A stretch of 64,000 bases of DNA from a virus. Taxonomy: Duplodnaviria > Caudoviricetes. The DNA lies in the IMG/VR virus record IMGVR_UViG_3300023170_004399, positions 160,001 through 224,000 of that record, one strand, 5' to 3'. Each line of letters begins with the position of its first letter. The first letter of the stretch is position 1. The position numbers and the translations under genes were made by a program. Of the stretch, positions 21,213-61,095 are shown in pieces. The notes beneath the pieces were generated by a model, which saw only the letters and a list, made by a program, of their open reading frames with translations, did not search any database and was not told the DNA's origin.

Positions 21213-21458
21213 ATGATTGAAAAAATACGTGAGTATATTAGAAAAATTATAATTGAAGCTTATGATCCGGATGATGTGCATGAGATGGGTGATGAAGATG
21301 ATTTGTTAATAGAGCCAGACGTTAAAGAAGACCGGGAAAATGAAAAAGATCCGTATGATGATGTTTATGACGAGGATGTTGATGAAGCAAGTGTTGTTGG
21401 CGGAATAGCTGGTGTAGTTGGCCCAGCATTTAATCCAGACCCGGAAAGAAAATATTAA
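21213..21458 (+). CDS. Small acidic hypothetical protein
   Basis: GGAG SD before ATG 21213; begins MIEKIREYIRKIIIEAY. Confidence 0.7.
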   Translation: MIEKIREYIRKIIIEAYDPDDVHEMGDEDDLLIEPDVKEDRENEKDPYDDVYDEDVDEASVVGGIAGVVGPAFNPDPERKY

Positions 21459-46867: not shown

Positions 46868-48358
46868 ATGAGAAATCACATAAATGACTCGTTAGAGTCA
46901 TTAACTTTTTTGTTAGATGAAACCATATTACTTTTGAATGATAGTATTCTGACAGAAGGTTTACTTGACGATGTTTATAAAAACATTGACATGAAAGATA
47001 CACAAAATATCATAGACGCTTTAAAATCATCTATAGAACCAGTTTTAGAAGCAATAGATGAAGCAAAAAAAGATTCACCAGTACCATTACGTGAGTTTCT
47101 ATTTAGCGGCCGTTTGCGTGAAATACTGGGTGTTTTAGAAAATTTAAATAAAGAAGAAGAACAAACAAAAATAAAAATAGCATTATTGTTCTTAGCTGAG
47201 GTCAAAGACGCTCTGCAACTATTAAACATATTCATGGTAGGACTAGGTAGATATTATCAAAATTCAGACTTTTACAAAAACAGAGATTTTGAAACTAGTG
47301 GACCCGGCAATATGAAAGTTGGCGAAGCTAATTTAGTATACATGATAAAGTTAGATGATGCAGCCAAACAAAAGATTATGGCAGACGAAAATGCTAAAAC
47401 TATTCTTACTAAGTTAGTTGAAAATTATAACAAAATGTACCAAGATATTACAGCTGCTATTGGCAATGTTATTAACAATGGTGCATTGTCTAAGTTAGCA
47501 AAATACGAAAAATCTAGTTTTTTTGGCTTTATAAAATCTGATGTGAAGAATGATGATGCTGTTGAGCTGCTAAATGATTTAGAAGAAGAGTGTAAAAAAT
47601 TATTAGGTCCAATTGACAATCTTAAGAAAAAATTTAATGCAGACAAAATGGGGTTTGCGTTCTTGTTATCTCCAATAACTGTTGAGAACATGGCTTTGAA
47701 ATTAAGAGGATCAGCGGAAAGCGTAGATAATGCCACAGCAAAAGCCGAAGATTTACACGATGATATGCAAGCTGCAGAAACTGAAATGAAAGAAAAAGAA
47801 GGGGAATCATTTGCCGATTTAAAATCTGAAGTTGGCGAATCATTTGTTGACAAGTTTTACAATTTTGCAAAAGGCATTGGTTTAGATGACGAAAAAATCA
47901 AAAAAGCTTTTGTTGTATTAGCAGATAAAAAAGATCAGATTAAGTCATACTTAGGATTGAAAAAAGAATCTTTTACAAGGATGAATTTGAGCTTATTATT
48001 TGAAGTTGATGAAAAATCTGAAAGCTTTATTAAATTTATAAATCAACTGTTGAAAGATTTAGGTGCAGAATATAAGGAAGACGACGTTAAAAAGTTTGTC
48101 TCTTCTCTAGATAGCGGTGTAGAAGACACTCAATCAAAACCAGCTATCAAATTAACACGAGGACAACACAGAGAGTTTATAAAAAACTTTATGCAACCAC
48201 CCGCGGGATCTGACAAGAAACATATGTTCCAGTACTTACAAAGTGTCAAATCAAAACCGGCAACAGATAAAAAAGTTGCAACTACTATAGGGAAACATAT
48301 GAATAAAGCAATTAAGGCAACGGGTAAAGATAAATTTGCAATATTCCCTGAGGAATAA
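46868..48358 (+). CDS. Hypothetical helical protein, probably virion-associated
   Basis: Long ORF; ILTEG and LLFEV motifs. Confidence 0.7.
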   Translation: MRNHINDSLESLTFLLDETILLLNDSILTEGLLDDVYKNIDMKDTQNIIDALKSSIEPVLEAIDEAKKDSPVPLREFLFSGRLREILGVLENLNKEEEQTKIKIALLFLAEVKDALQLLNIFMVGLGRYYQNSDFYKNRDFETSGPGNMKVGEANLVYMIKLDDAAKQKIMADENAKTILTKLVENYNKMYQDITAAIGNVINNGALSKLAKYEKSSFFGFIKSDVKNDDAVELLNDLEEECKKLLGPIDNLKKKFNADKMGFAFLLSPITVENMALKLRGSAESVDNATAKAEDLHDDMQAAETEMKEKEGESFADLKSEVGESFVDKFYNFAKGIGLDDEKIKKAFVVLADKKDQIKSYLGLKKESFTRMNLSLLFEVDEKSESFIKFINQLLKDLGAEYKEDDVKKFVSSLDSGVEDTQSKPAIKLTRGQHREFIKNFMQPPAGSDKKHMFQYLQSVKSKPATDKKVATTIGKHMNKAIKATGKDKFAIFPEE

Positions 48359-48379
48359 CTGTTTTTAATTAAAAATAAC

Positions 48380-48387
48380 ATATTTAT
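48380..48387 (+). promoter_or_regulatory. ATATTTAT motif (putative late promoter)
   Basis: Intergenic copy upstream of the large virion protein gene. Confidence 0.35.
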
Positions 48388-48418
48388 ATAAAAAATATAT
48401 TTTTTATTGGAGAGCACA

Positions 48419-51400
48419 ATGGCGGTAATGTTAACTGAAAGTTATAAAAAACGATTAGCTAGAAAATATAATGATAAAAATTTTCGAACAAAGAATATTA
48501 GAGTTTTAGTAGAAGCAGTTGATAGGACTAAAACAGAATATAATTATATATATGATGCATATGATTTGACTAAGAAACAAAGAGTTTGTTTAAAGTTAAT
48601 GTCTGAAATGTACAATGTGCCGCCAAATCAGCTGATTTTACAAGAAGATATATATAAAAAATTGTCTAGCTTTTGGCGCAAGTTAACAGGATCAATGCCG
48701 CAAGATGCTGCACTTGATGTTTCAGCTGATAAATCACCTCTTCATAATAAATTAATTGCACAAGCTGCAAAAGAACAACTTGATGGTAGCAATTTTATTA
48801 AACGCGCTAAGCGTGGTTGGGCAGCTGGTAAAAGATCAGATAAACGTGGAGAAGGTTTTTGGGGTGGTTATGGTGTTGGCTCGAAATTTAGATCAGCAGT
48901 TGCTGACATGTCTTCAAATTTTCAGTTTGGTGTACATGGCGGCGTTGACAACGAAAAACTTGATGCAATACGTGGGGAATTTGCTGGATTGGTTGATGAT
49001 TTTGAAGCAACTGGTAAGGCAGCTGCAAAGGATTTAGTTGCTAAAATACACAAAGCAGCTGAGGAGAGCAATTTTCCAAATAATCCAAGCGCAGAAGAGT
49101 TTTGTAAAATTTTATTCGGCCATTCCCATATTGACGATTTGGAAGGTGATAACACTGAGGCTGGTGGAATATTAGGTGCAATATTTGCTTTTAGAGAAGA
49201 TTTACAAGAATTAGTAAATAAACAATCTATGCCCGTTGATGTTGCGAATGCATTGCTAGATCAGCTGAGGAGAATATTAAAGAATTATGCCGGGCAAGTA
49301 AAAGACAGTTATGCCAGTAGACTTATAAAAACATCAGAAGGCGTGTTTGGTCGAGATGATTTGCTTTATAACGACAAGTACAATTTAAAGCAAAGGCTTC
49401 TTGAAGCAAATGAAGATAATGAAGATCAAGAAGGTGGCGAAGAAATCGATGAAGAACAAGCAAAATTAATTAAAGATTCTGAACGTTTCTTCAAGACTAA
49501 ACAAAAGCAGAGTCGGCAAAAAAGTAAACAACTTGCTAACAAAATAGATATAACTTTAAATGGTGGAAAATATGCTGAAAAAGAAGAGAATTTTCCGGAT
49601 AAGTTAATTGTTAAATATAAAGACAAAGATGGTAAAGAAGTAGAAAAAGTTTATCAAACTAGTGAGGTCCTTTCCGGGACAAAGACAAACACCAAAGCTG
49701 ACTTAAATAAACCTAATGCATCCATGGGTCAGAAATTCACGGCTTTGTTTAAAAAGTTTATGAAAAATAAGAAAGCGCAAAAGATTATCAAGCCGGCAGT
49801 TATTGACCAAGCTATTAAGACAAATCCGGAATATAAAAAATTGTTACAAAGAAAAGATTTGCAAGGTAAATCTTTAACAGATGAAGCTTATGAGAAAATC
49901 ATGGCTGATATCAAAAAAAATGAAAGTGTTTTAGGACCTTTGATTTTTGCATTAGTAGGTACAATTGGCATGGCTATGGGTGCATATGCTGGTGGAAGTG
50001 TTTTAGGTAATTTCGCTGCAGACACAAATGTTCAAAACTGGATAGCATCTTTACCTGGTACCAATGTAATGCAAACAGCTTCTTTTTTAGCAGATGCAAG
50101 TTTGCCTATTTCTACAACAGGACACTGTTTTACCGGTGTTCTTTATGACATTGGTCCCACATACGGCACGACTTTCGATGTAGCAAATCATACATCAACT
50201 CTGAAAGATGCAAAAGCTGTATTGATACAGGCTTTTGGAGATGGAACCACTCTAACACACGCTCAACTACAAGCAGGTATGCCAAGTCTAAACGTTTCCC
50301 AGGCTTCTTTCGACGCTATGATGGATCCTGCTAATTCAACTCAAGCAATAGGCGATTTTTTCCACAGAAGTGGTACATTTAATGGTATTCTTCCAGGTTC
50401 GGAGTTTTATTTAGGTGCTTCGAAGGTTTTTGTAAAGCAATTGGTAATGATGGGTGGAAGATACTATGTTGCCAACACATTTTATGCTATGGGTGCCAGT
50501 GCTATGGGGGGAACATCATTAGCTGGCGCAGTTTCGGGTGTTGGTGGCATGACTGTAATTGCAACTGGTGGTACTGCAATAGCTGCAGCTGCATTAGCTA
50601 TCGTAGCGTTTAGAAAATTAGGCACTAAAAGAAATAGAAGAAATATGATTATGTCATTAGTCGACTTGATCAAACCTATAGAGGGTGCTAGTAAACCAAT
50701 CGACCCGGATATAGAAAGAATTTCCCCTGTTGACACGCCACCGGTGGTAAATCCAACAAAAGACCCTAACTTAAAAGCATCATTTGATTTAGTAGTAAGA
50801 TTTTTAAAGAAGAAAGGATATAATCCAAAAGACGCTTTAAAATTAATGCAAGCATTGTACAACCCAAAAACAAAATTAGGCAGAAAGAGTTTCAAAGATT
50901 TTTATGATGAATCAGAGTCACAACAAAATCTTCGAGCGCATTATTCACGCACTGGAAAATACTCGCTTTTGGCTGTGTTATCAGAAGATATATCATATAA
51001 AAGATATGCGAAAAGAATGAAGCGTGCTGCGAAAAAAGCAAAAGTACCTTTTTTAAATGATGAGCAGTTAAGAGCAGCTGCTATTGCTATTAACAATGCA
51101 TATATTATTGGTGATATTGACGAGACAACATTTCCTAAAGATATAATGGAAAAAGTAATTGAAGTTGAATCTGAAGAGCTAAAGAAAAAATATGAAGATG
51201 CTTTGAAAGAAAACGAAGAATTAGATAGAATAATGAAAAATGCTGTTGAAAGTGCTGCTGCAGAAATAGGTGTGCAAGCAGAAACAATCCAACAGTTGAA
51301 AGCTAAATTAGATGCTGCAATTAAAAAAGGTAATTTGAGTGAGAGTCAACTTCAAATGGCGATAAGAACAATTCAGGGTTTAGAACAACAAGTAGCAGCT

Positions 51401-52279
51401 TTACAAAAAAATGTTGATGAAGACATTGCTTATCTTTATGGTGAAATGTATGTAATGCATGAAATTTTAAAGAAAATAATGAATAATCCAGAGCTTAAAA
51501 TTGATGACAATGAAGAAAAGAAAATGTCTGATATGTATGAAAAGTTAATTGCAAGATTAGATTTAGAAGGCAGCGCTGAATATACTAAATTTTTAGAAAA
51601 CGGCACCAGTATTGGGCAGTTAAATAGCATATTCGCGAAAATAGATGAAACACCAAATGATTTTCTAGAAGATGTAATGAATTTGACATCATACCTTAAT
51701 GAGCTACATGCAAAATATATGGCTGCAAAATCATCTGAAAAGAAATACGAAGGTGATTTAGGTAATCTTCATACTTTATATTTAGCGCTATCGGGTGTTA
51801 GTAAAATTTTAGACAATGAGGGTAACGTAACTGCAGATGTAGAACAGGCTCGATCGACAGGTAACATAGCAGGTGCTCTTGATGCGGCTACAAACACAAA
51901 AGCTTTAGATAAATACAATAGAATAAGAAAGACTTTTAAAAGAAAAGGTTTTGATGTACCAGCTGATGAAAGGGCTGATATGATAAAAGATTTTAGTGAT
52001 GAAATGTCAAAAGGTTTTGATGCTGTTGGGGCAGCTGTAGAAAAAGGTGGTAATGTACGGGATGACGGTGCTGAAGCAGCATATTTTAAAAACAAGAAGA
52101 GAAAATATCCGCATGCACCATTCCCTGCAGATAGTGCTTTAGAAAAGAAGTTTGCTAAACAAGCTGAACGTCGAAGAAAAGATAGAGAAAGAAAAAGGAA
52201 AAAGCGACTACAAGCATGGAAAACAAATGATGGTAACTTGCTTATAGAAAGATGGCAAAAATTAGCTGGTTTAAAATAG
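48419..52279 (+). CDS. Large hypothetical protein, probable internal virion/ejection protein
   Basis: GGAG SD; two hydrophobic G/A-rich segments; coiled coil; ends ERWQKLAGLK. Confidence 0.7.
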   Translation: MAVMLTESYKKRLARKYNDKNFRTKNIRVLVEAVDRTKTEYNYIYDAYDLTKKQRVCLKLMSEMYNVPPNQLILQEDIYKKLSSFWRKLTGSMPQDAALDVSADKSPLHNKLIAQAAKEQLDGSNFIKRAKRGWAAGKRSDKRGEGFWGGYGVGSKFRSAVADMSSNFQFGVHGGVDNEKLDAIRGEFAGLVDDFEATGKAAAKDLVAKIHKAAEESNFPNNPSAEEFCKILFGHSHIDDLEGDNTEAGGILGAIFAFREDLQELVNKQSMPVDVANALLDQLRRILKNYAGQVKDSYASRLIKTSEGVFGRDDLLYNDKYNLKQRLLEANEDNEDQEGGEEIDEEQAKLIKDSERFFKTKQKQSRQKSKQLANKIDITLNGGKYAEKEENFPDKLIVKYKDKDGKEVEKVYQTSEVLSGTKTNTKADLNKPNASMGQKFTALFKKFMKNKKAQKIIKPAVIDQAIKTNPEYKKLLQRKDLQGKSLTDEAYEKIMADIKKNESVLGPLIFALVGTIGMAMGAYAGGSVLGNFAADTNVQNWIASLPGTNVMQTASFLADASLPISTTGHCFTGVLYDIGPTYGTTFDVANHTSTLKDAKAVLIQAFGDGTTLTHAQLQAGMPSLNVSQASFDAMMDPANSTQAIGDFFHRSGTFNGILPGSEFYLGASKVFVKQLVMMGGRYYVANTFYAMGASAMGGTSLAGAVSGVGGMTVIATGGTAIAAAALAIVAFRKLGTKRNRRNMIMSLVDLIKPIEGASKPIDPDIERISPVDTPPVVNPTKDPNLKASFDLVVRFLKKKGYNPKDALKLMQALYNPKTKLGRKSFKDFYDESESQQNLRAHYSRTGKYSLLAVLSEDISYKRYAKRMKRAAKKAKVPFLNDEQLRAAAIAINNAYIIGDIDETTFPKDIMEKVIEVESEELKKKYEDALKENEELDRIMKNAVESAAAEIGVQAETIQQLKAKLDAAIKKGNLSESQLQMAIRTIQGLEQQVAALQKNVDEDIAYLYGEMYVMHEILKKIMNNPELKIDDNEEKKMSDMYEKLIARLDLEGSAEYTKFLENGTSIGQLNSIFAKIDETPNDFLEDVMNLTSYLNELHAKYMAAKSSEKKYEGDLGNLHTLYLALSGVSKILDNEGNVTADVEQARSTGNIAGALDAATNTKALDKYNRIRKTFKRKGFDVPADERADMIKDFSDEMSKGFDAVGAAVEKGGNVRDDGAEAAYFKNKKRKYPHAPFPADSALEKKFAKQAERRRKDRERKRKKRLQAWKTNDGNLLIERWQKLAGLK
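52249..52270 (+). repeat. 22-nt dispersed exact repeat, copy 1
   Basis: AAGATGGCAAAAATTAGCTGGT (RWQKLAG), identical at 58863-58884. Confidence 0.9.
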
Positions 52280-52286
52280 GTGATAT

Positions 52287-52733
52287 ATGAAAAGATTAAA
52301 CGAAAGAAAGCTTTTACGTATAATAAAGCAAAAGTATAAGCAAAGATTAGCGGATCGTTTAATTGAAGCTAATCTTTCAGAAATGGATATTGCAGATAAG
52401 CGTGGAAATGTGTTGTTATCGCGTGGTTTAAAAGTCAGACATAAAAAAAGCGGGTATGTGTATACAGTAGACAGTGTTGAAGGCACCGGCGAAAATACCA
52501 AAGTAGTTTTAAGGCACCCAGATGAACCAAGAGTTGACCCTGGGGATTCTGTTGATAGTTTACACGAGGATGATGGTTTAGGTTTTGATATTAATGATTT
52601 GAACATGGACAGAATAGCAAATAGACCAGTTGATCCTACAAAGGCCGGATTTGCAAAAAGTAAAATGCAAAAGTCACATGACACAATAACAGTAAGTAAG
52701 AAAACTTTTGAAGAAGAATACGAATTAGCATAG
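52287..52733 (+). CDS. Hypothetical protein (small beta domain)
   Basis: AGGTG SD; begins MKRLNERKLLRIIKQ. Confidence 0.75.
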   Translation: MKRLNERKLLRIIKQKYKQRLADRLIEANLSEMDIADKRGNVLLSRGLKVRHKKSGYVYTVDSVEGTGENTKVVLRHPDEPRVDPGDSVDSLHEDDGLGFDINDLNMDRIANRPVDPTKAGFAKSKMQKSHDTITVSKKTFEEEYELA

Positions 52734-52740
52734 GTGTAAA

Positions 52741-53448
52741 ATGGATGATTTAATTAAAAAAGCTGTAGAACAAAGTTTAAAAAGAAGTAAATACATTAAG
52801 AAGCATGCTGATATTAAATCTAGCGTTACTTTAAATGAAGCTTATGTTGTGCAAGCAAAAAAATATGATTTAGCTACAGATTTACTTTCTGGTAAAAACA
52901 AACAAGCCCACAACCAGTTGTTAGCTAAGTACGTTGAAGATTTAAATGCTGTTTCAGCTAAGTTAGATGCTGCTGATAGAGATGATGCGAATTTAAACCA
53001 CAGTGAATTTAGATCATTAAAAATAGATGAAGTATACAATTTAAATGCTGCATTTTTGCATGGCATGTTTTTTGAAAATATATCAGATATGCAATCTGTA
53101 ATCACTATGGATAGTTTGGCATATATGCGATTGTCTCGTGATTTTGGTACGTTTGATGATTGGCAAAAAGATTTTGTAGCATGTGCTATGTCTGCTCGTA
53201 ATGGTTGGGCAGTAACAGTTTACAACACATTCCTTAAAAGATATATTAATGTTGTTGTAGATTTGCATTCTTTGAATATACCATTTGGTTCAATACCAGT
53301 TATTGTTATGGATTGTTGGGAACATAGTTACTATAGAGATTATTTAAAAGATAGAAAAACATATGTTTTTGCAATGATGAAAGAATTAAATTGGAATACT
53401 ATTGAAGACCGGTTTAAAAAAGCTGACAAAATATCAAAGGTTGGGTAA
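52741..53448 (+). CDS. Fe/Mn superoxide dismutase with an N-terminal extension
   Basis: All four metal ligands: KQAH, FLHGMFF, MDCWEHSYY; DFGTFDDW, GWA. Confidence 0.88.
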   Translation: MDDLIKKAVEQSLKRSKYIKKHADIKSSVTLNEAYVVQAKKYDLATDLLSGKNKQAHNQLLAKYVEDLNAVSAKLDAADRDDANLNHSEFRSLKIDEVYNLNAAFLHGMFFENISDMQSVITMDSLAYMRLSRDFGTFDDWQKDFVACAMSARNGWAVTVYNTFLKRYINVVVDLHSLNIPFGSIPVIVMDCWEHSYYRDYLKDRKTYVFAMMKELNWNTIEDRFKKADKISKVG

Positions 53449-53449
53449 G

Positions 53450-54253: not shown

Positions 54254-54522
54254 TGTCCAAAAGTAAAAGATATGATTTTACTAACAGGAAATCAATTCAT
54301 TTTCACATGACCAAAGATATACACAAAGAATTTAAAAAGAGGTTGTTTGATGATGAAATTACTATGCAAGAGTTTTTTGAAGAGTGCGCTATTAGGATTG
54401 TTGAAGACGATGCCTACATGGTTAAACTTATTGAGCGACTTAAGCAAAAAAGGATTGAAAAAGAAAAAAGAATATATTCCGTCGAAGCTGATTCAATATA
54501 CGATGCAATCGAAAAAGAGTGA
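54253..54522 (+). CDS. Small basic protein, possible ribbon-helix-helix regulator
   Basis: RKSIHFHMTKDIHKEFKKRL..ITMQEFFEEC pattern (beta strand plus two helices). Confidence 0.5.
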   Translation: MSKSKRYDFTNRKSIHFHMTKDIHKEFKKRLFDDEITMQEFFEECAIRIVEDDAYMVKLIERLKQKRIEKEKRIYSVEADSIYDAIEKE

Positions 54523-54745
54523 TTTAGAAGAAGTACTCTCGAAAAAAACTCTTACTGACATGTCAAAAATAAAAATGACTCAGTCTAGCTTGTTGGTGTC
54601 AACAAAAGAAATTGCTAAAACACAAAATATGTTATTAACATATATACAAGATTTAGGCTATGAATTAGACGATTTAAAAATAGCTACTGGAATTTCCCGA
54701 AAAAAGAATATTTATTTCTATAAAACATCTGATAAAGGACACTAA
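54503..54745 (+). CDS. Hypothetical protein
   Basis: Start reassigned to ATG 54503 to remove a long overlap. Confidence 0.5.
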   Translation: MQSKKSDLEEVLSKKTLTDMSKIKMTQSSLLVSTKEIAKTQNMLLTYIQDLGYELDDLKIATGISRKKNIYFYKTSDKGH

Positions 54746-54758
54746 TGGGAGAAATCAT

Positions 54759-55034
54759 GTGGCTACTAAAGAAGAAGTAAAAGATGCTATCAAATCAGCA
54801 TTAAACGTTGAGCTTTCTGCGGAACAAAAAAAGGCCTTATACTTAAATAATAAGAAAAAAGGTATGTTAGACACTGTTCAAGAGAAAATTATATCAAGAA
54901 AATTATTAGTTTTTACTGTTGCAACAGCTTTAATGTGGTATGGTTTAGATTCAGACACGTGGGGTATGATTGCAATGACATATATTGGTGGTCAAACTGC
55001 TATCGATTTTGCTAAAGTTTGGCGTGGTGCTTAA
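54759..55034 (+). CDS. Holin-like membrane protein
   Basis: SRKLLVFTVATALMW and WGMIAMTYIGGQTAIDF, two short hydrophobic helices; basic C-end. Confidence 0.55.
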   Translation: MATKEEVKDAIKSALNVELSAEQKKALYLNNKKKGMLDTVQEKIISRKLLVFTVATALMWYGLDSDTWGMIAMTYIGGQTAIDFAKVWRGA

Positions 55035-55351
55035 TGTTGTTAAAAATTAAAGAATATTGGCAGTGGCTTGTTGGTGCTATACTAGTTTTAGCTGCTTACA
55101 CGTTAGGTAAAAAACAAACTGGCATAAATTCTGATGATTTAGAAGACATGTTAGAAAACAGCGAAAATGAAAAGCAGAAGTTGATGAAAATTCAGAAAGA
55201 TCACTTAAAAAATAAAAAAATTATTGAAGCTGATAATAAAAGACAGGTTATTGAGTTAGAAGAATGGAAAAAATCTGAGGAAGCACGTATTGAAGAAAAG
55301 AAAAAAGATTCAGATGATGTTTTCGCAGAGTTGGGTATTAAAAAGAAATGA
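55034..55351 (+). CDS. i-spanin-like protein (N-terminal TM plus coiled coil)
   Basis: WQWLVGAILVLAAYTLG followed by a charged helix; coupled TAATG. Confidence 0.45.
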   Translation: MLLKIKEYWQWLVGAILVLAAYTLGKKQTGINSDDLEDMLENSENEKQKLMKIQKDHLKNKKIIEADNKRQVIELEEWKKSEEARIEEKKKDSDDVFAELGIKKK

Positions 55352-55746
55352 TTATATTGTTAACTAAGTTAGTTTTTGCGCAAACACCAGAATACACATA
55401 CATTGAGACTGGTGAACCAGCACCATTTTCTGGTCGTTTATTCAATGATGCTGCTAGCGAGCTGCTAAGTGAAACTATTGACGTTGGCTTGGAAAAATGT
55501 AAATTAAATACTGAGTATGAGATTAAAAAACTGCAAATAGAGCATAATAAAGAGTTACAGAATTTAAAAAATGATTATAATATGGTCATTAAACAAAAAG
55601 ATGCCAAAATACAAAAACTTAATAAGGATATAGAGATTCTTAATGATGTAAAAACACCACCTAAGCCTAAATTTTGGTTTTCATTAGGTGCTGGCACAAC
55701 TGCCGTTGTTTTTGGTACGTTAGCCTATCTCATTGGAGCTAATTGA
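55348..55746 (+). CDS. Exported coiled-coil protein with a C-terminal TM (spanin-like)
   Basis: MIILLTKLVFA-Q signal, GEPAPFSGRL, coiled coil, KFWFSLGAGTTAVVFGTLAYL. Confidence 0.45.
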   Translation: MIILLTKLVFAQTPEYTYIETGEPAPFSGRLFNDAASELLSETIDVGLEKCKLNTEYEIKKLQIEHNKELQNLKNDYNMVIKQKDAKIQKLNKDIEILNDVKTPPKPKFWFSLGAGTTAVVFGTLAYLIGAN

Positions 55747-56879
55747 TGAAAATAAAAAAAAGCAAACTAGATAAAGCCATTGAAAATTGGTTGTTCGAAG
55801 ATAGTGTACCTAATAGAAGAAATAATGTTACTGACGATAAAGTTGCAGGAACATTAGGTGATGAAAGAGATTTGGTACAAATGCCAATTGACCCGACTCC
55901 GCATGTTCCTTTGATATCAAGAAAAAAATTGCCAATAGACGACAGTAAATGGGAACCAGTCAACCCAGAAGAGTTAGCATATGCTGTAAAAGAATTAGCT
56001 GATGCAATACCTGATGAAAAGGTAGTGGCTGCTTATCAAATTATTAAAAAAACTATTGAACAAATTATTGAAAGGGAAAACCTTAAGGTTTCTGACATTG
56101 CTTTTGATAAAGATTATAAAGAAAGTAATAAACCAATTAAGAGTATCAAAAAAGAGAGTTTAATAAGAGAAGCTGGCGGAGATGATGACGATGAAGAATT
56201 TTTGCCGGACATTGATGACATTATAGAGTTTGCATCATTTAACCCGAATACAGATTTATCACTAGTGCCAGGTTTTGATGAAGCAATTGAAAAAGCTAAA
56301 AAAGAATATACTCTCGAAGACTTAGTTAATTTAGGTGTATATACTGGCGTTAAAACTAGTGGCCATATGAGAAATAAAATTGAAACAGAAATTTTTCCAG
56401 TTTTAGCTGCTAGTCGTAATGCTGTAGTGTTAATCAATAAACTGATAAGCTTTGTTAAATATTCCAAGTGGGCGCATGACATGTTTTTAGAAACCGGGCT
56501 TTTATCTGGCGCCTTAACTCATGACAATATTAATGATTTAAGGACAACTATTCTCATGTCTTCTTTAGACACTAGGGATAAATTTGGTTTTAAAAAATCA
56601 CACAAAGATATTCCAACAAGCTCACCACTTATGAGCGCATGGGGCTTCGTCATATATGAGGTTATAACAAAGCCAGCCATGAAATATTTAAAAAAATTAG
56701 ATTATGACCCTGCTAATATTAATAATCAAGTAACGGTTGAAAATGCAGAAGCTATTATTGAAAAAATACAAGACCGTTGGAATACAATGCCAGCTAAAGG
56801 TGCTGGCACAACAAAGTTATCTATCTCTAAAAAAGCTTGGCTCGAATGGGCAGATTTTCAAATGAAATTTGGTAAATAG
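55746..56879 (+). CDS. Hypothetical protein
   Basis: Begins MKIKKSKLDKAIENWLFED. Confidence 0.75.
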   Translation: MKIKKSKLDKAIENWLFEDSVPNRRNNVTDDKVAGTLGDERDLVQMPIDPTPHVPLISRKKLPIDDSKWEPVNPEELAYAVKELADAIPDEKVVAAYQIIKKTIEQIIERENLKVSDIAFDKDYKESNKPIKSIKKESLIREAGGDDDDEEFLPDIDDIIEFASFNPNTDLSLVPGFDEAIEKAKKEYTLEDLVNLGVYTGVKTSGHMRNKIETEIFPVLAASRNAVVLINKLISFVKYSKWAHDMFLETGLLSGALTHDNINDLRTTILMSSLDTRDKFGFKKSHKDIPTSSPLMSAWGFVIYEVITKPAMKYLKKLDYDPANINNQVTVENAEAIIEKIQDRWNTMPAKGAGTTKLSISKKAWLEWADFQMKFGK

Positions 56880-56881
56880 TT

Positions 56882-57214
56882 ATGAAGTTAATGAGTGTAA
56901 TGGAAAAATATTTTGATAACGTGATTGCTGAAAGTGCAACACCGATAAAACCAAAACCAAGTACAAAAAAATGGATGCGTAAAGAAGATCCAAATCGATT
57001 AGTACGCACATTCAATATAGAAGACAATAAAAAATATAATAAATTTCTTTACGCTGTTTTAGAACATCAGAGAAGTGTCAATCACCACGCAAAGATATTA
57101 GCAGAATACCCTAATATTACAGTGGAGATATGGTCACACACAATAGAAGATATTACTGAGATGGATTTAGATTGGGCTCGAGATGTTTCGGCCTTATACA
57201 AGAGAGAAAAATGA
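56882..57214 (+). CDS. Pterin-4-alpha-carbinolamine dehydratase-like protein
   Basis: W..., LVRTF, NHH, VEIWSH, ITEMDLDWA. Confidence 0.78.
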   Translation: MKLMSVMEKYFDNVIAESATPIKPKPSTKKWMRKEDPNRLVRTFNIEDNKKYNKFLYAVLEHQRSVNHHAKILAEYPNITVEIWSHTIEDITEMDLDWARDVSALYKREK

Positions 57215-57555
57215 GTATCTATTATAGTGATGAGTTAGAAGGTAAAATTGATAAGTCACAGTTTGAGCGTGAGTTTAGACAAAATACATTGTATATGGTA
57301 AAGCCATTTAAACTGCAAGTCACTGAATTTAGTAAAAAACAGAGCGGCACGTATGTAAAAGTGTACATGAAAGACATTTATGACGAAGTTGTTGAATATA
57401 TATTGTTAGGTGGATTTGCAAATGATGAAACTGTTTTAGAGTTTGAGTATAATGGAAAACCAATAAGCTTTATTAATAAAGTAAATTTTTATGAATACAG
57501 TTTTGCACATAAAGACTGGATGGTAATTGGTGAAGAAGTTAGGAGAAAAAAATGA
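57211..57555 (+). CDS. Hypothetical protein
   Basis: Start ATG 57211, overlapping the previous stop. Confidence 0.7.
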   Translation: MSIYYSDELEGKIDKSQFEREFRQNTLYMVKPFKLQVTEFSKKQSGTYVKVYMKDIYDEVVEYILLGGFANDETVLEFEYNGKPISFINKVNFYEYSFAHKDWMVIGEEVRRKK

Positions 57556-58217
57556 ATCTAGACGATATTATAAAAAAAGCTACTATTAATAGCCTTAAAG
57601 AAAGTGGTCTTATAACAGAAGACCGTGAACAAGAAGAGAAAAGAGAGTTGCTACGTCAGCAAGCAGCCGCGGATGCATTTGAAAAAGGCGGATACAAAGC
57701 ACCGACAAAAAAGGATAAAGAAAAAGATAAAACTTTACAAGATAAAAAAGGTGATGACGCTGATGAGGCAGAAGACGATGCTGGCTTAAAACCAAAAGAG
57801 CCAAAAAGTGAAAAACTGCCTTCAATAACTGTTAGAAAGGTAATAGATAAAATCGATGATATAAGAGCCGGTTATAGTTTACATACAAAAAAAGGCGTTA
57901 AAGACCTTACATTGTATTTCAATCGATTGAGCAAAAATGAACAAATAGCACTGTATGCCTTTCTTACGGGAATAGAACAAGTGATGGATTCAGAAACAGA
58001 AATTGATGGCCCGACAGCTGACATACCAACAAAAGATCCTTATGCTATTCAGATGAAAAGAAACAAGGTTATAAAAGCAAAAAAGAAAAAAGCTGCTAGT
58101 AAAAAATCAAAGCCGGGAAGTGCGGAAAGTCCTATCGTTGTAGGAGAAGCTGCAGATAAATCAACTATTAAACGTAGATTATTACAGATTAATCGGAAAA
58201 ACAAAAAACGAGTATAA
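57552..58217 (+). CDS. Hypothetical protein
   Basis: Begins MNLDDIIKKATINSLKESGLITED. Confidence 0.75.
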   Translation: MNLDDIIKKATINSLKESGLITEDREQEEKRELLRQQAAADAFEKGGYKAPTKKDKEKDKTLQDKKGDDADEAEDDAGLKPKEPKSEKLPSITVRKVIDKIDDIRAGYSLHTKKGVKDLTLYFNRLSKNEQIALYAFLTGIEQVMDSETEIDGPTADIPTKDPYAIQMKRNKVIKAKKKKAASKKSKPGSAESPIVVGEAADKSTIKRRLLQINRKNKKRV

Positions 58218-58245
58218 TTAATATTATATATTTTAGGAGACAATA

Positions 58246-58899
58246 ATGCGTTGGTCAGCAAAGAAACTTAAGAATTTCATACTTAAAGAGGTAAGATTAC
58301 TTGAAAAACATGCACACGGTCACGATCCAATGAAAAGCATGGGAATGAGTGGTGTATCAGATTATGATGATTACTACGATGATGAAGATTTAGGAATGAT
58401 GGATGTACATATCCATAGACATCATGATGATGAAGAAGAAATGCATCCTTATGATATAGCTGATCAAATGCACGATGAAGATCACAGTCATGACATGCCT
58501 CATGGTGCAATGCCAGATTATCACAATCCAATGGACGATATGCATGATGAGCACATGGGGGCTGAGCATGATGATTATGATGATTATCACGATCACGGAT
58601 TAGAAATGGACGATGAAGATATGGATTTGGGCCCAGCATCCGGATTTAGCCCTAACTCATATGAAGATGATTATCCTGGTGTGAAAGATTTGCATTTATA
58701 TGAAGCAGATGAAGATGTAGATGAAGATGAGCTTAATGAATATGATGAGTTAGAAGAAGACGACGAAATTGATGAAGGTGGGTGTGGATCTTCTCGAGGC
58801 GGAATGTACGGAGAAGGTGACGAAGACGAAGACGAAGGTGAAAAACTGGAAGAAGGTCTTCGAAGATGGCAAAAATTAGCTGGTCTTTTAAGAGGGTAA
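58246..58899 (+). CDS. His/Asp/Met-rich low-complexity protein
   Basis: AGGAG SD; about 19 His; ends RRWQKLAGLLRG. Confidence 0.75.
   Translation: MRWSAKKLKNFILKEVRLLEKHAHGHDPMKSMGMSGVSDYDDYYDDEDLGMMDVHIHRHHDDEEEMHPYDIADQMHDEDHSHDMPHGAMPDYHNPMDDMHDEHMGAEHDDYDDYHDHGLEMDDEDMDLGPASGFSPNSYEDDYPGVKDLHLYEADEDVDEDELNEYDELEEDDEIDEGGCGSSRGGMYGEGDEDEDEGEKLEEGLRRWQKLAGLLRG
58863..58884 (+). repeat. 22-nt dispersed exact repeat, copy 2
   Basis: Identical to 52249-52270. Confidence 0.9.
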
Positions 58900-58902
58900 C
58901 AC

Positions 58903-59730
58903 GTGGATCATGAAGTTGAACTAGCTGTTCGAACATTACAGCAAAACAGTACTGATGTGCAAGCTGCAGCTAATTTTAAAAGAAGTCTAGATGATTATAT
59001 TGACGATATTATAGAAGGCTTGGCACCTAAACTGGTTGATCATGTTAGAGAACAAGAAGTCGATGAAGATGTTGATGAGTTTTTTGATGGTGTAAAGCAA
59101 GCAGGTCTAGATAACTTTCGTGCTTATCAACAAAGTCAAGATATCGGTACATTTGAGTCATTGCTACAACAATATAAACGTACTGAGACAGACGATTTTA
59201 TAGAAGGCTATGAGTATGGATGGAAAAATGGTGTCGATATACGTACATATAATAGCATCGATGAATTACCTATAGAATTGAAAGACGAATTAGTTTCAGT
59301 AGCTATCGATACTTTTGATGATAGACTTACAGAAGAATCTATAATCGCTGCAATGCAAGAAGCATGGCATCACTTAAACCCAATGAATATCTTACGAGCT
59401 CTAGGCACAGCTTTTAAAGAAGGTGACTGGAAATTGTTTCTTAAGTTAGCACTCTTTGAATTGTTTGAACATTATGTTTTGCCTACTGTTTTAGTGTCTC
59501 TGACTGGCAACCCTGCTTTTATGGCATTAGCAGCAATACCAATTGGTGAAGTTTTAATACCAATTTATTTAGCCATAGTTGGTGGAAAAGACAAAGGGCC
59601 CGACATCCCAGGTCATTATGATCAATATAAAGAACGAAAAGCTGCAGCTGCTAAAATACCGGAAGGCCGAGTCTATAAATTAAATGAAGCGCAAACTAGA
59701 CTTTTTGTACAATCAGTTCTAAACGGATAA
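58903..59730 (+). CDS. Hypothetical protein with a hydrophobic C-terminal segment
   Basis: GTG start after GAGGG. Confidence 0.7.
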   Translation: MDHEVELAVRTLQQNSTDVQAAANFKRSLDDYIDDIIEGLAPKLVDHVREQEVDEDVDEFFDGVKQAGLDNFRAYQQSQDIGTFESLLQQYKRTETDDFIEGYEYGWKNGVDIRTYNSIDELPIELKDELVSVAIDTFDDRLTEESIIAAMQEAWHHLNPMNILRALGTAFKEGDWKLFLKLALFELFEHYVLPTVLVSLTGNPAFMALAAIPIGEVLIPIYLAIVGGKDKGPDIPGHYDQYKERKAAAAKIPEGRVYKLNEAQTRLFVQSVLNG

Positions 59731-59731
59731 T

Positions 59732-59739
59732 ATATTTAT
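59732..59739 (+). promoter_or_regulatory. ATATTTAT motif (putative late promoter)
   Basis: Intergenic copy. Confidence 0.35.
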
Positions 59740-59757
59740 TACTAAAGAGGTAATAAT

Positions 59758-61095
59758 ATGCGTAATAAGAAGTTATTGTTAGAAGGGTCGATGGATAATT
59801 TAATTTCTGGTAATTTTGGTGCCAGTTCACCGGCCGGTCAAGCATTAAGAAATTTTAACACAGTTTTCATTGGTGTAACTCGTAAATTGTTAAGAGCAAC
59901 AATCATGTCGATCGATGTTGCTTTATTTACATGGTTTCCAACATCATACAAAGATGTTTTAAGAGATTATAAAAACGATATTAATGGTATTGAGAATAGT
60001 TACTCAGCTGCTTTGTCACAACTAACAGAAAACTTGCCAGTAGCGCAAAAAAGTATGTTGTTGTTAAACCCTGCAGCTTATTTTTTATATCATGGTACTG
60101 AAATTTCCCAAACAGTGTTCGATAGTAATTCAAGCTTATATAATTTAATGCAACAAACTGGGTTTGACAAACTACCTGGGATTGGTTGGGCTTTTAGAGA
60201 TCAATCGACACACGTAGTTGACCCTGAAAGATTATCCGAATATATTGATAATGGTCAAAATGGACTGGCATTAGCATATTTGTTTGGTAATCAAAACGTT
60301 TTAGATGCATTGCAGGGTCAAAAACAGGGTGGCGGTTCCGATGGTTCCTTTATGTCAAAACTTTTTGGCAAAATAAATGATATATTTACTGGTAAGGCTG
60401 TCGTCGATTTATTTAGAGAAAGTAAAACAATTAATAGAAAAGTTATTTTAGAAAACAAAAAAGACAAAGATCTTGTAAAACTATATGCAATATTGCTTAA
60501 GAGGCTTTCTAAAATAGCAATCAAAAATAAGATAAGTTTGATCGATGAAAAGCAGCAAGAAAAAGTTTTAAAAATACACGCAGCTGCATGTAAAAACGCA
60601 ACGAAGCAATTGACAGAAAGAATGAAAGCATTAAATATATTGTTGGCTCTTGAAGATAAATCAAAAGAACCCAAAGAATATTATGCTGCGTTAGCAGAGT
60701 ATAAAAGAATTGTAAATGACAAGAAATTAAGTCTCAGCAAAATTAAATCTGACATTAAAAGTGAAATGCCTAACATGTTACGTGACAAGAAAATATTGCA
60801 AGATTACAAAAAGACTAGTAAACGTGGTTCAATTGATAAAAAAGCTTTCCAGCAATATTGTGAATTAAGAATATTAAATAGTATAATTAATCAGATAAAG
60901 GTAACAGCTTATTCTGCCGGCGAAGAATTTTATCAAAAAGTTGAAAAAGATCTTTTGTTTGGGATGACAGCAAAGCAGCTGGTTTCGGGTCCGCAATCAA
61001 ATGAATACACTAAAAAAGTATATAAGCAGTATGAAGACACCATTAAAAACGTGGCACGTGCCACGCGTGGCACAATTGGTAAAAAAAATAAATAA
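59758..61095 (+). CDS. Hypothetical protein (445 aa)
   Basis: GAGG SD; begins MRNKKLLLEG. Confidence 0.75.
   Translation: MRNKKLLLEGSMDNLISGNFGASSPAGQALRNFNTVFIGVTRKLLRATIMSIDVALFTWFPTSYKDVLRDYKNDINGIENSYSAALSQLTENLPVAQKSMLLLNPAAYFLYHGTEISQTVFDSNSSLYNLMQQTGFDKLPGIGWAFRDQSTHVVDPERLSEYIDNGQNGLALAYLFGNQNVLDALQGQKQGGGSDGSFMSKLFGKINDIFTGKAVVDLFRESKTINRKVILENKKDKDLVKLYAILLKRLSKIAIKNKISLIDEKQQEKVLKIHAAACKNATKQLTERMKALNILLALEDKSKEPKEYYAALAEYKRIVNDKKLSLSKIKSDIKSEMPNMLRDKKILQDYKKTSKRGSIDKKAFQQYCELRILNSIINQIKVTAYSAGEEFYQKVEKDLLFGMTAKQLVSGPQSNEYTKKVYKQYEDTIKNVARATRGTIGKKNK
61050..61073. repeat. Two overlapping perfect 16-bp palindromes (GC-rich)
   Basis: CGTGGCACGTGCCACG (61050-61065) and GTGCCACGCGTGGCAC (61058-61073). 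Confidence 0.9.

What the first reader, a model, noticed from the sequence alone, without database searches (positions are those of the whole stretch)
46868..61095. Shared capsid-targeting/processing signature across a dozen unrelated proteins
Seen: many unrelated ORFs begin with a basic amphipathic helix followed by (I/L)-x-E: MKRLNERKLLRIIKQ..RLIEA (52287), MDDLIKKAVEQSL..TLNEA (52741), MKIKKSKLDKAIENWLFED (55746), MKLMSVMEKYFDNVIAES (56882), MNLDDIIKKATINSLKES (57552), MRWSAKKLKNFILKEVRLLEK (58246), MRNKKLLLEG (59758), MAVMLTES (48419), ILTEG (46868); also IREYIRKIIIEA (21213) and LYDYIIAET (20595). Three carry R-(W/L)-(Q/M)-(K/E)-LAG-(L/I). Established: T4 prohead protease gp21 cleaves after (I/L)-x-E, and T4 internal proteins carry a short N-terminal capsid-targeting sequence. 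Inference: this is a modular zip code for loading diverse cargo into the head.
Basis: partly seen in the sequence, partly recalled or inferred. Interest (0 to 1): 0.65.

Follow-up and report, generated by a model that had tools for sequence, protein, structure and literature searches.

The report
Head-loading tags on phage proteins
About ten unrelated proteins of this uncultured marine T4-like jumbo phage, including a superoxide dismutase, start with a short leader ending in the cut site of the T4-type head protease, and two end in the same eight residues that end the head scaffold of related phages, so they are probably loaded into the capsid as T4 loads its internal proteins, though nothing has been shown at the bench.

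Summary
In the block 46868-61095, 9 of 16 genes carry [IL]-x-E-[AGST] in their first 45 residues, against 4 of 47 elsewhere in the window. Composition-preserving shuffles give 2.3 +/- 1.4, and 0 of 5000 reach 9. The "basic amphipathic helix" part is not significant, and the window's leaders are not detectably homologous to each other.

Relatives support the reading:
- Two syntenic jumbo phages (289 and 298 kb) have a Peptidase_S77 (T4 gp21) protease.
- Their gp23-type capsid protein has [ILV]-x-E|[AS] where T4 gp23 has FLTE|A.
- They carry 15-30 unrelated proteins starting with a 22-residue leader, MKITKRQLRRIIKEE..LLxE.
- Leader conservation stops exactly at that Glu. A leader profile finds 9,498 protein clusters in public data.
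- Nearly all of 120 homologues of the window's SOD keep a variable leader plus [LI]-N-E|[SA]-Y-V just before the SOD fold.

RWQKLAGL is the extreme C-terminus of the gp22-position scaffold in many T4-like phages, and also of unrelated cargo. In cargo it often follows [ILVM]-x-E directly, so it looks removable.

Verdict: an expanded, two-address variant of the T4 capsid-targeting system. Cleavage and packaging are inferred, not shown. This scan has noted both tags before on other phage genomes.

The parts
46868..48358 (+). 496-aa ORFan, first gene of the block. Candidate leader ends LTE|G (E30; 46868-46957). Weak case.
   Evidence: No family match. No detectable homology to the positional counterpart in G003.
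48419..52279 (+). 1286-aa protein with Gly-rich hydrophobic segments. Short leader MAVMLTE|S (48419-48439). The C-terminal tail ..LLIE|RWQKLAGLK* (RWQKLAGL = 52250-52273) is directly preceded by a protease-type site. Candidate ejection or core protein.
   Evidence: The tail is identical to scaffold tails. [ILVM]xE directly before the tail, as in all 15 non-scaffold bearers. No Pfam family.
52287..52733 (+). 148-aa protein. 27-residue basic leader ending RLIE|A (52287-52367).
   Evidence: The G003 orthologue's leader is a significant member of the canonical leader family (33 bits, E 2e-9). The site aligns with ALE|A and LSE|S in G003 and G004.
52741..53448 (+). Fe/Mn superoxide dismutase with a 33-residue N-terminal extension ending TLNE|A (52741-52839).
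   Evidence: PF02777, 4.5e-19. The SOD fold starts near residue 30 relative to solved SODs. E33 is invariant in 39 homologues, as are H57, H107, D191 and H195. Nearly all of the 120 closest homologues have a leader plus [LI]NE|[SA]YV. AF2 gives helix 2-16, then pLDDT below 50 for 15-36, then the fold.
53450..54253 (+). 267-aa Gly/Asp/Glu-rich protein. The N-terminus MKRRLMELAGII carries a LAG-type peptide (53459-53482), followed by LLRE|E (E26).
   Evidence: The G003 orthologue keeps ..RLLEMAGIIHRS..VLLE|G. Whether this N-terminal copy works like the C-terminal tail is unknown.
55746..56879 (+). 377-aa ORFan. 18-residue leader MKIKKSKL..WLFE|D (55746-55799).
   Evidence: WLFE is conserved in a 76%-identical homologue and in G003, while residues 5-14 vary. 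Only 2 homologues in 5.8 billion proteins.
56882..57214 (+). Pterin-4a-carbinolamine dehydratase with a 17-residue leader ending VIAE|S (56882-56932).
   Evidence: PF01329, 1.4e-13, domain from residue 28. Close homologues read VIAE, MLTE, LVIE and ILTE before [SN]ATP: P3 aliphatic, P2 free, P1 Glu fixed.
57552..58217 (+). 221-aa protein. Leader ends SLKE|S (57552-57602).
   Evidence: The G004 counterpart has VVKE|S.
58246..58899 (+). 217-aa Asp/His-rich protein. Basic leader MRWSAKKLKNFILKEVRLLE|K (58246-58305) and C-terminal tail RRWQKLAGLLRG* (RWQKLAGL = 58864-58887).
   Evidence: Its positional counterpart in G003 (341 aa) also has both a leader and a tail.
58903..59730 (+). 275-aa protein with a hydrophobic C-terminal half. 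IIE|G at residues 36-38. Weak case.
59758..61095 (+). 445-aa ORFan. 9-residue leader MRNKKLLLE|G (59758-59784).
   Evidence: LLLE|D in G003 and ILKE|D in G004 fall in the same alignment column.
20595..21197 (+). 200-aa protein outside the block. Leader MSSLYDYIIAE|T (20595-20627).
   Evidence: The G003 gene at the same position starts MKSLWEHILLSE|S.
21213..21458 (+). 81-aa acidic protein outside the block. Leader MIEKIREYIRKIIIE|A (21213-21257), a marginal member of a second leader class (MK.LR.YIR..LLE).
   Evidence: Class-B profile E = 0.012, better than every internal control. 13 stronger members lie in G003.
54253..55746 (+). Not part of the signature: one 89-aa soluble protein and three small membrane proteins that interrupt the block.
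   Evidence: No motif. The same genes interrupt the block in G003.

Best explanation
The block 46.9-61.1 kb mostly encodes proteins of the prohead core, or internal ('ejection') head proteins, of a T4-type marine jumbo phage. The proposed mechanism has four steps.

1. Each cargo protein is made with an N-terminal leader: one helix plus a flexible linker.
2. The leader holds the protein in the scaffolding core while the gp23-type shell closes around it.
3. The linker ends in [ILV]-x-Glu, the site cut by the gp21-family (Peptidase_S77) head protease, which then removes the leader. In the clade the commonest leader is a portable 22-residue module, MKITKRQLRRIIKEE..LLxE. The window carries diverged versions of it.
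4. Some cargo uses a second address, the C-terminal peptide RWxKLAG[LI]. This is the same peptide that ends the gp22-position scaffold protein. It probably docks to the scaffold tail's partner, most likely the inner face of the capsid protein. In cargo it is often preceded directly by [ILVM]-x-Glu, so it could be clipped off as well.

Shown here: the motif enrichment; leader homology and peptide-level selection in relatives; the sharp end of conservation at the Glu; the protease gene and a T4-type capsid maturation site in syntenic relatives; and tail identity between scaffolds and unrelated proteins.

Inferred: binding, cleavage, presence in virions and delivery into the host.
For: Window statistics.

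Clade context: G003 (289 kb) and G004 (298 kb) are syntenic with the window at 30-80% amino-acid identity. Both encode phrog_207/PF03420 proteases (90 bits against a cut-off of 27), as do 5 of 5 other large leader-bearing contigs. The MAFFT alignment puts LLRE|A, VLKE|S, ILKE|A and IVSE|A in the column of FLTE|A of T4 gp23.

Leader:
- 26 + 13 N-terminal profile hits in G003 and G004, against 3 among 3081 internal segments. Whole-record searches give 30, 15 and 31 copies in three complete genomes.
- The protein bodies are unrelated: 3 of 741 pairs show similarity.
- The invariant Leu8 uses 5 codons.
- In IMG/VR, 164 of 166 matches follow a start codon directly. Information content falls from 2-3 bits at the unconstrained positions 16-22 to 0.4 bits after Glu22.
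- A leader profile finds 9,498 clusters at E <= 1e-3 among 1.84 billion representatives.
- Leader-bearing small proteins flank the protease gene.

Window cargo: see SOD; dehydratase; others.

Tail:
- 53 of 66 degenerate-DNA matches are in frame, 0-4 residues before a stop, and are encoded by 37 different DNA strings.
- Bearers lie between the protease and the major head protein.
- There are four unrelated bearer families, plus the window's two.
- [ILVM]xE stands directly before the tail in 15/15 non-scaffold and 0/34 scaffold-type or small acidic bearers.
- AF2 of a cargo protein with both tags shows the leader and the tail as low-confidence helices, joined by disordered linkers to a confident core.

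Precedent: T4 CTS and gp21 processing, including both termini of Alt (PMC3012670, PMC9026906, PMC5694885).
Against: - No proteomic, biochemical or structural datum exists for any of these proteins.
- The head module of this phage itself is outside the window, so the protease and scaffold are known only from relatives.
- The window's leaders do not match the canonical leader profile and are heterogeneous in charge.
- The residue after the Glu is varied (A, S, G, T, D, K, E, Q, Y), so the motif is short and permissive. The shuffle control suggests about 2 of the 9 window hits could be chance.
- In G003 at least 40 of about 340 genes carry a leader, some on kinase-like proteins. That is more cargo than any characterised capsid is known to load through one signal.
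- No T4-type late promoter marks these genes.
- The 58246 tail and the scaffold tails are not preceded by Glu.
- T4 gp22 itself has no such tail.
Confidence: 0.62

Rival explanations
1. The leaders are real, conserved N-terminal modules, but they address something other than the capsid. Possibilities include a shared oligomerisation or docking helix, recruitment to a phage replication or assembly compartment, a chaperonin (the phage encodes GroEL) or a host factor. On this reading the terminal [ILV]xE is a helix-capping or binding feature, not a cut site.
For: No packaging data exist. At least 40 leader-bearing genes occur per genome, including enzyme- and kinase-like proteins. Many leader genes lie far from the head module, at 228-256 kb in G003. 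A GroEL gene sits at 63150.
Against: - The boundary motif is the same as at the capsid protein's T4-homologous maturation site and at the scaffold N-terminus.
- Leader proteins sit directly beside the protease gene.
- The same proteins also carry the scaffold's C-terminal tail.
- The site lies in a predicted disordered linker just before the folded domain. That suits a protease site better than a binding helix.
Confidence: 0.15
2. Within this window the N-terminal pattern is largely a short, permissive motif in Lys/Glu/Ile/Leu-rich proteins. Only a few genes (SOD, the 148-aa protein, the tail bearers) are true head cargo, and the 'dozen' is an overcount.
For: There is no detectable homology among the window's leaders. 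Shuffles give about 2.3 hits by chance. Helix and charge descriptors are not significant. 46868, 58903 and 57552 lack good support from orthologues.
Against: - 9 observed against 2.25 expected, with 0/5000 shuffles reaching 9, and no excess in the 47 other genes.
- The site is conserved at aligned positions for six of the block's proteins in relatives at 30-66% identity.
Confidence: 0.15
3. The shared ends are nucleic-acid-level features: A-rich 5' coding regions that favour translation initiation, or recombination cassettes that shuffle genes. They are not peptide signals.
For: Leader codons are very A-rich. The two window tails share 22 identical bases. Mobile regulatory cassettes are known in T4-type genomes (PMC2839356, listed but not read).
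Against: - Invariant residues use up to five synonymous codons.
- The tail is written in 37 different DNA strings across GC 0.30-0.55.
- Leaders persist in a relative with 54% GC.
- Hydrophobic positions follow a helical i, i+3, i+4 spacing.
- Conservation ends at a specific residue rather than fading.
Confidence: 0.05

Closest known systems
Phage T4 capsid targeting sequence (CTS, MKTYQEFIAE) of internal proteins IPI-III, and the short gp21-cleaved propeptides of gp22, gp24, gp67, gp68 and Alt
   Same: - A short N-terminal peptide on otherwise unrelated proteins, ending in (L/I)-x-Glu.
- A genome with a Peptidase_S77 protease and a gp23-type capsid protein that keeps the same site.
- Cargo that is diverse and fast-evolving.
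- In relatives, the scaffold N-terminus (..YQEAIAE|A..LLKQAIAE|A) closely resembles the T4 CTS and the gp22 N-terminus.
- T4 Alt is also clipped at both ends (PMC5694885).
   Different: - The cargo leaders are longer (9-33 residues; 22 in the canonical module) and show no sequence similarity to MKTYQEFIAE.
- There are 15-31 bearers per genome and thousands of clusters in metagenomes, against 3-4 in T4.
- At least two leader classes exist.
- The cargo includes recognisable enzymes (Fe/Mn SOD, pterin dehydratase, a ParB/Srx-like protein).
- Nothing has been shown experimentally.
Extensive head-protein processing in giant phages phiKZ, 201phi2-1 and SPN3US (S80 proteases; motifs S/A/G-x-E and A-x-E)
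   Same: A jumbo phage, many head or ejection proteins with propeptides cut after Glu, and redundant sites inside the propeptides (PMC5694885, PMC9026906).
   Different: - Those phages have no single conserved leader sequence shared by unrelated proteins. Only paralogues share N-termini.
- P3 is small there, not aliphatic.
- The protease family is S80, not S77.
- This clade is T4-like in capsid, protease and tail genes.
80alpha scaffolding protein and SaPI1 CpmB C-terminal 'helix-and-hook' (RIIK) tail (PMC5644958)
   Same: The last roughly 16 residues of a scaffold protein form an amphipathic helix plus a short hook. An unrelated protein carries the same ending and so binds the same site on the capsid protein. 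Here the endings are ..RWQKLAGLIK* and ..LAGIIK*.
   Different: - The phage lineage and capsid protein differ.
- The bearers here are the phage's own candidate cargo, not a satellite's size-redirecting scaffold.
- Binding to the capsid protein has not been tested.
- The resemblance of ..GIIK to RIIK may be coincidence.
Encapsulin cargo-loading peptides
   Same: A short terminal peptide on unrelated enzymes, taken to dock inside an HK97-fold shell.
   Different: Encapsulin peptides are not removed by a protease and are unrelated in sequence. They serve a permanent compartment, not a DNA-filled virion.

Membership tests
T4-type CTS / gp21-processed head proteins | The phage encodes a Peptidase_S77 (gp21) prohead protease | tested here: met
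   Met in the syntenic relatives G003 and G004 and in 5/5 other large leader-bearing contigs (phrog_207 at E about 1e-50; PF03420 at 90 bits against a cut-off of 27). The gene of this phage itself lies outside the window, upstream of the sheath gene, and could not be read because no genome is held.
T4-type CTS / gp21-processed head proteins | (L/I)-x-Glu close to the N-terminus of the candidate substrates, more often than chance | tested here: met
   9/16 against 4/47 genes. Shuffles give 2.25 +/- 1.35, and 0/5000 reach 9.
T4-type CTS / gp21-processed head proteins | The major capsid protein keeps the maturation site at the place homologous to T4 gp23 (cut after Glu65, from my own knowledge) | tested here: met
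   The alignment places FLTE|A (T4) with LLRE|A, VLKE|S, ILKE|A and IVSE|A of clade members. This was tested on relatives only.
T4-type CTS / gp21-processed head proteins | A conserved leader on divergent mature parts | tested here: met
   Met in relatives and in SOD homologues. Within the window itself leader homology is not detectable.
T4-type CTS / gp21-processed head proteins | Sequence similarity of the leader to the T4 CTS MKTYQEFIAE | tested here: not met
   The cargo leaders (MKITKRQL.., MK.LR.YIR.. and the window's own) do not resemble it. Only the scaffold N-termini do. The system therefore works like the T4 CTS but is not the same peptide family.
T4-type CTS / gp21-processed head proteins | The proteins are found in proheads or virions with the leader removed | not testable with these tools
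   This needs proteomics. No cultured member carrying the canonical leader was found.
Scaffold-tail (helix-and-hook type) capsid-docking peptide | The same peptide forms the extreme C-terminus of the phage's scaffolding protein | tested here: met
   The gene between the protease and the major head protein ends in RW.[KR]LAG[LI] plus 0-4 residues in G003, G004, L057, Flavobacterium phage immuto and 31 IMG/VR loci. The scaffold of this phage itself is outside the window.
Scaffold-tail (helix-and-hook type) capsid-docking peptide | Unrelated non-scaffold proteins end in the same peptide | tested here: met
   Window genes 48419-52279 and 58246-58899. G003 has three more. After the tail is removed, the bearers fall into four unrelated families.
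Scaffold-tail (helix-and-hook type) capsid-docking peptide | The peptide binds the capsid protein | not testable with these tools
   No multimer prediction or binding assay was available.
Fe/Mn superoxide dismutase (52741-53448) | SOD fold and the four metal ligands | tested here: met
   PF02777 at 4.5e-19. Best solved match is 1coj at 5e-27. H57, H107, D191 and H195 are invariant in 39 homologues. Assigning them as the metal ligands rests on my knowledge of Fe-SOD.
Pterin-4a-carbinolamine dehydratase (56882-57214) | Match to PF01329 above its cut-off | tested here: met
   51.2 bits against a cut-off of 26, residues 28-104. Catalytic residues were not checked.

The most novel reading that the evidence does not exclude
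Marine T4-type jumbo phages use a two-address, protease-released cargo system. A portable 22-residue N-terminal leader docks proteins to the scaffolding core. A C-terminal copy of the scaffold's own tail docks them to the shell. Each address is bounded on the cargo side by the head protease's cut site. Together they load dozens of unrelated proteins per phage into the capsid for delivery with the DNA, drawn from thousands of families worldwide. The cargo includes ready-made enzymes (SOD, pterin dehydratase, a ParB/Srx-like protein) and many small acidic proteins that may be counter-defence factors. If true, this would also give a defined peptide handle for studying how proteins are localised in the T4-type core, which the 2023 T4 head review calls 'mysterious' (PMC9958956).
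Probability: 0.4. Interest if true: 0.75.

Novelty: new variant of a known kind. Interest (0 to 1): 0.6.

Why it matters
How proteins are sorted into the scaffolding core of T4-type heads is still unexplained. The T4 model offers only one 10-residue signal on three or four proteins.

This clade offers more to work with:
- a much larger natural data set of leaders and cargo;
- a sharply defined leader, linker and cut-site architecture;
- a second address, derived from the scaffold tail, that looks removable.

It also predicts that some ocean phages deliver active enzymes with their DNA, among them a superoxide dismutase that is very common in marine metagenomes (more than 2000 homologues at E <= 1e-10). 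That would change how such 'auxiliary metabolic genes' are read.

The leader and the tail are short, portable and testable as packaging tags. For this window taken alone the result is more modest: a block of likely head-internal proteins with diverged leaders.

Tried and rejected
- **Cultured phages:** megablast and tblastn of block genes found nothing. A 30-residue leader query also found nothing, though the low-complexity filter may have hidden matches.
- **IMG/VR:** The search for related loci with the 377-aa protein found no relative.
- **Family searches:** PHROGs and Pfam gave nothing for most block proteins or for tail bearers. PHROGs gave only faint N-terminal matches of leader proteins to families of unknown function (phrog_7338, 134, 3323).
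- **Canonical leader profile on the window's six frames:** no hit.
- **'Basic amphipathic helix' test:** not significant.
- **T4-type late promoter:** TATAAATA/ATAAATA is not enriched in the window (6 found, 12.9 expected) and is not placed before these genes in G003 or the window. The expression class remains unknown.
- **Homology of the window's 496- and 1286-aa proteins to the positional 872-aa protein of G003:** none beyond the tail.
- **ESM Atlas look-ups for 55746 and 59758:** uninformative.
- **Literature:** no paper in the library contains the leader or tail strings. A search for virion-packaged phage SOD gave nothing relevant.
- **Foldseek on the DGHHRW cargo model:** nothing significant. 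VIA-align gave only low-Z ParB/Srx-fold rows.


Full report
**What the window is.** All real genes lie on the + strand, and GC is about 33%.
- 15-20.6 kb holds contractile-tail and baseplate genes (phrog_23 sheath, tube, hub).
- 21.5-46.9 kb holds replication, nucleotide-metabolism and DNA-modification genes.
- 46.9-61.1 kb is the block in question.
- A GroEL gene starts at 63150.

Earlier notes of this scan on the same genome call it an uncultured marine jumbo phage. The head module, which in relatives lies just upstream of the sheath gene, could therefore not be read for this phage itself.

**Checking the observation.** I fixed a stricter form of the motif, [IL]-x-E-[AGST], within the first 45 residues.
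- 9 of 16 block genes have it, against 4 of 47 other + strand genes (Fisher p = 2e-4).
- Shuffling each N-terminus, which keeps its composition, gives 2.25 +/- 1.35 block genes, and none of 5000 shuffles reaches 9. The other genes show no excess (4 observed, 5.0 expected).
- The motif is 2.2 times as frequent in the first 42 residues as further in for the window (p = 0.0045). The ratio is 2.7 in the relative G003 (p = 1e-17), with a peak at residues 10-20.
- The 'basic amphipathic helix' part did not pass: hydrophobic moment p = 0.07 and charge p = 0.18.
- The block is interrupted by genes without the motif, 54253-55746 and 57211-57555.

**Relatives.** A degenerate DNA pattern for RWQKLAGL in IMG/VR brought in loci that also carry this phage's sheath gene at 46-55% identity. 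Two records could be read whole: G003 (288,697 bp, 96% complete) and G004 (297,894 bp, terminal repeats). Both are syntenic with the window across tail, replication and the block, at 30-80% amino-acid identity. They serve as stand-ins for the missing parts of the genome.

**The protease and its known substrates.**
- G003 encodes a Peptidase_S77 protein (PF03420, 90 bits against a cut-off of 27) and a PF07068 gp23-type capsid protein.
- G004 and five further large contigs of the clade all have the phrog_207 protease at about 1e-50.
- I aligned the clade's capsid proteins with T4 gp23 taken from the T4 record. LLRE|A, VLKE|S, ILKE|A and IVSE|A fall in the column of T4's FLTE|A. From my own knowledge, that is the gp23 maturation cut after Glu65.
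- The scaffold proteins start ..YQEAIAE|A or ..LLKQAIAE|A, very like T4 gp22 (MLKEQLIAE|A) and the T4 CTS.
- The T4-type specificity, aliphatic-x-Glu, is therefore plausibly kept in this clade.

**The leader.** In G003 and G004, many genes begin MK[IL]TKRQL[KR]RII[KR]EE.. .
- An iterated profile finds 26 and 13 N-termini. Only 3 of 3081 internal 45-residue segments match.
- Whole-record searches give 30, 15 and 31 copies in three complete genomes, 2 weak ones in the cultured Flavobacterium phage immuto, and none in Microcystis phage Mel-JY01.
- Beyond residue 32 the proteins are unrelated: 3 of 741 pairs show similarity. They are mostly small and acidic.
- The invariant Leu8 is written with five codons, and synonymous differences are common. 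Selection therefore acts on the peptide.
- A degenerate DNA scan of IMG/VR for TKRQL[KR]RII[KR]E[ED] gave 166 matches on 78 loci, many from contigs of 100-293 kb and often clustered. Of these, 164 follow a start codon directly.
- Positions 16-22 were not part of the search pattern, yet they stay conserved at 2-3 bits (K-A-[KR]-[LIV]-[LIV]-x-E). Information then drops to about 0.4 bits from residue 23 on. Glu stands at position 22 in 80 of 123 unique proteins.
- A profile of 54 leaders (A2) finds 9,498 representative clusters at E <= 1e-3 among 1.84 billion.
- A second class, MK.LR.YIR..LLE|, has about 13 members in G003. The window's 21213 gene is a marginal member.
- Small leader-bearing proteins lie directly beside the protease gene in G003, G004 and G006, where T4 has gp67 and gp68.

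**What this means for the window.** The window has no canonical leader. Its versions are diverged, but orthologues tie them to the system.
- *Superoxide dismutase (52741-53448).* More than 2000 homologues exist. Nearly all of the closest 120 carry an extra 20-40 residues of the form MNDKTLKQIIREELG.. then [LI]-N-E|[SA]-Y-V. In a 39-sequence alignment that includes the 50%-identical G004 protein, Glu33 is invariant. The four residues I take to be the metal ligands are invariant too. Solved SODs begin to align at about residue 30. AlphaFold2 gives a helix at 2-16, a stretch with pLDDT below 50 at 15-36 that contains the site, and then the fold.
- *Pterin dehydratase (56882-57214).* Close homologues read VIAE, MLTE, LVIE and ILTE before [SN]ATP. 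P3 stays aliphatic, P2 is free and Glu is fixed.
- *148-residue protein (52287).* Its G003 orthologue has a significant canonical leader, and the site aligns in all three genomes.
- *Others.* WLFE| (55746) and LLLE| (59758) are conserved at aligned positions. The two cases outside the block, 20595 and 21213, have counterparts with the same kind of leader at the same place in G003.
- *Weak cases.* 46868, 58903 and partly 57552.

**The tail.**
- Of 66 IMG/VR matches to the degenerate RWQKLAGL pattern, 53 are in frame, 0-4 residues before a stop and after a long open frame. They are written in 37 different DNA strings from contigs of 30-55% GC.
- The bearers usually lie between a phrog_207 protease and a phrog_138 major head protein, which is the position of T4 gene 22.
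- In the cultured Flavobacterium phage immuto, that gene is annotated 'DNA polymerase phi-like'. It starts ..LLKQAIAE|A and ends ..SRWQKLAGIIK*.
- In this phage's own clade the scaffold ends ..NRWAKLAGLNKK* (G003)..ERWARLAGIVK* (G004) and ..DRWAVLAGIGDKA* (L057). Three further unrelated G003 proteins and two window proteins end the same way.
- With the tail removed, the IMG/VR bearers form four unrelated families.
- All 15 non-scaffold bearers have [ILVM]-x-E directly before RW, as does the window's 1286-residue protein (..LLIE|RWQKLAGLK*). None of the 34 scaffold-type or small acidic bearers does, although many scaffolds have I-x-E seven residues upstream.
- In cargo the tail therefore looks like a removable C-terminal propeptide. 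This recalls the C-terminal processing of T4 Alt at LTE-619 (PMC5694885).
- One cargo family with both tags has an invariant DGHHRW motif. It folds with a confident core (pLDDT 80-98). The leader helix and the tail helix are joined to the core by disordered linkers. Fold matches to ParB/Srx-type proteins are weak, at Z 4-5.5.

**Mechanism and its status.**
- The best reading is an enlarged T4-like system. The leaders hold cargo in the scaffolding core, the S77 protease clips them at [ILV]xE, and a copy of the scaffold tail gives some cargo a second, probably shell-directed, docking site.
- The precedent for the tail is the 80alpha scaffold and CpmB 'helix-and-hook', in which an unrelated protein shares the scaffold's last 16 residues and binds the same site on the capsid protein (PMC5644958).
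- The precedent for the leader is the T4 CTS. [quoted passage not shown]
- The 2023 T4 head review states that localisation in the core 'remains mysterious' (PMC9958956).
- All binding, cutting and packaging steps here are inferences.

**Rivals.**
- A non-capsid address for the leaders cannot be excluded, given at least 40 bearers per genome.
- Part of the window's dozen may be chance, about two by the shuffle estimate.
- A nucleic-acid-level explanation is unlikely, given the synonymous variation.

**Novelty.** The principle is known from T4, phiKZ and SPN3US. The following appear undescribed in the searched literature:
- the conserved 22-residue module on thousands of protein clusters;
- the two leader classes;
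- the enzyme cargo;
- the scaffold-tail address bounded by a cut site.

Within this scan, however, both kinds of tag have been noted several times on other phage genomes. The finding is therefore recurrent here rather than unique. I reached the reading above before seeing those notes, and they agree with it.

Noticed in passing
P0123-P0140 (metagenome proteins); also G003 reverse-complement coordinates 235695-236366 and G004 reverse-complement coordinates 104630-105556: Many ORFs contain two to four copies of the MKITK.QLK.II.EE leader in one reading frame. Each internal copy still starts with Met and is followed by a different body. They could be natural poly-cargo proteins cut apart by the protease, genes with internal starts, or recent fusions.
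   Followed up: partly
L074:4008-5072 (-), L057:3933-4976 (+) and 11 more loci (alignment A4); not in the window: A cargo family with an invariant DGHHRW motif carries the leader (..SL.SL.FE|D, Glu30 invariant) and the tail (..[ILVM]xE|RWQKLAGLIK*). The AF2 core is confident. The best fold rows are ParB/Srx-type proteins (serine kinase SerK, sulfiredoxin, PadC, SbnI) at Z 4-5.5 only. In some relatives the gene sits right after the capsid gene.
   Followed up: partly
G003 reverse-complement coordinates 243-256 kb; window 21213-21458: A second leader class, MK.LR.YIR..LLE|, sits on about 13 larger proteins in G003. One of them has a P-loop-like GAPGAGK motif right after the leader.
   Followed up: partly
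window 54759-55746: Three small membrane proteins interrupt the cargo block and are conserved in G003. One has a C-terminal TM segment, one an N-terminal TM segment plus a coiled coil, and one a signal-like N-terminus plus a C-terminal TM segment. They could be lysis or spanin-like genes, or membrane parts of an ejection apparatus.
   Followed up: no
window 58246-58899: The tail-bearing 217-residue protein is extremely rich in Asp, His, Glu and Met (HxH, DDxH runs), which suggests metal binding or an acidic, DNA-mimic-like internal protein.
   Followed up: no
window 48419-52279: The 1286-residue tail bearer has long Gly/Ala-rich hydrophobic stretches in the middle and coiled-coil-like regions. 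This resembles membrane-inserting ejection proteins of other phages.
   Followed up: no
L099:4501-5742 (NC_055915.1, Flavobacterium phage vB_FspM_immuto_2-6A, gp067): The gene annotated 'DNA polymerase phi-like protein' lies between the prohead protease and gp23. It has a gp22-like N-terminus and the RWQKLAGIIK tail, so it is almost certainly the scaffold protein.
   Followed up: partly
L183:3552-3779 (Microcystis phage Mel-JY01): A gene annotated as ribosomal protein S21 (RpsU) sits inside the head module, between the prohead protease and the scaffold-position gene.
   Followed up: no
window 52230-52300 and 58845-58910: The two window tails share 22 identical bases (AAGATGGCAAAAATTAGCTGGT). 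This fits the phage's preferred codons, but a recent copy of the tail from one gene to the other is possible.
   Followed up: partly
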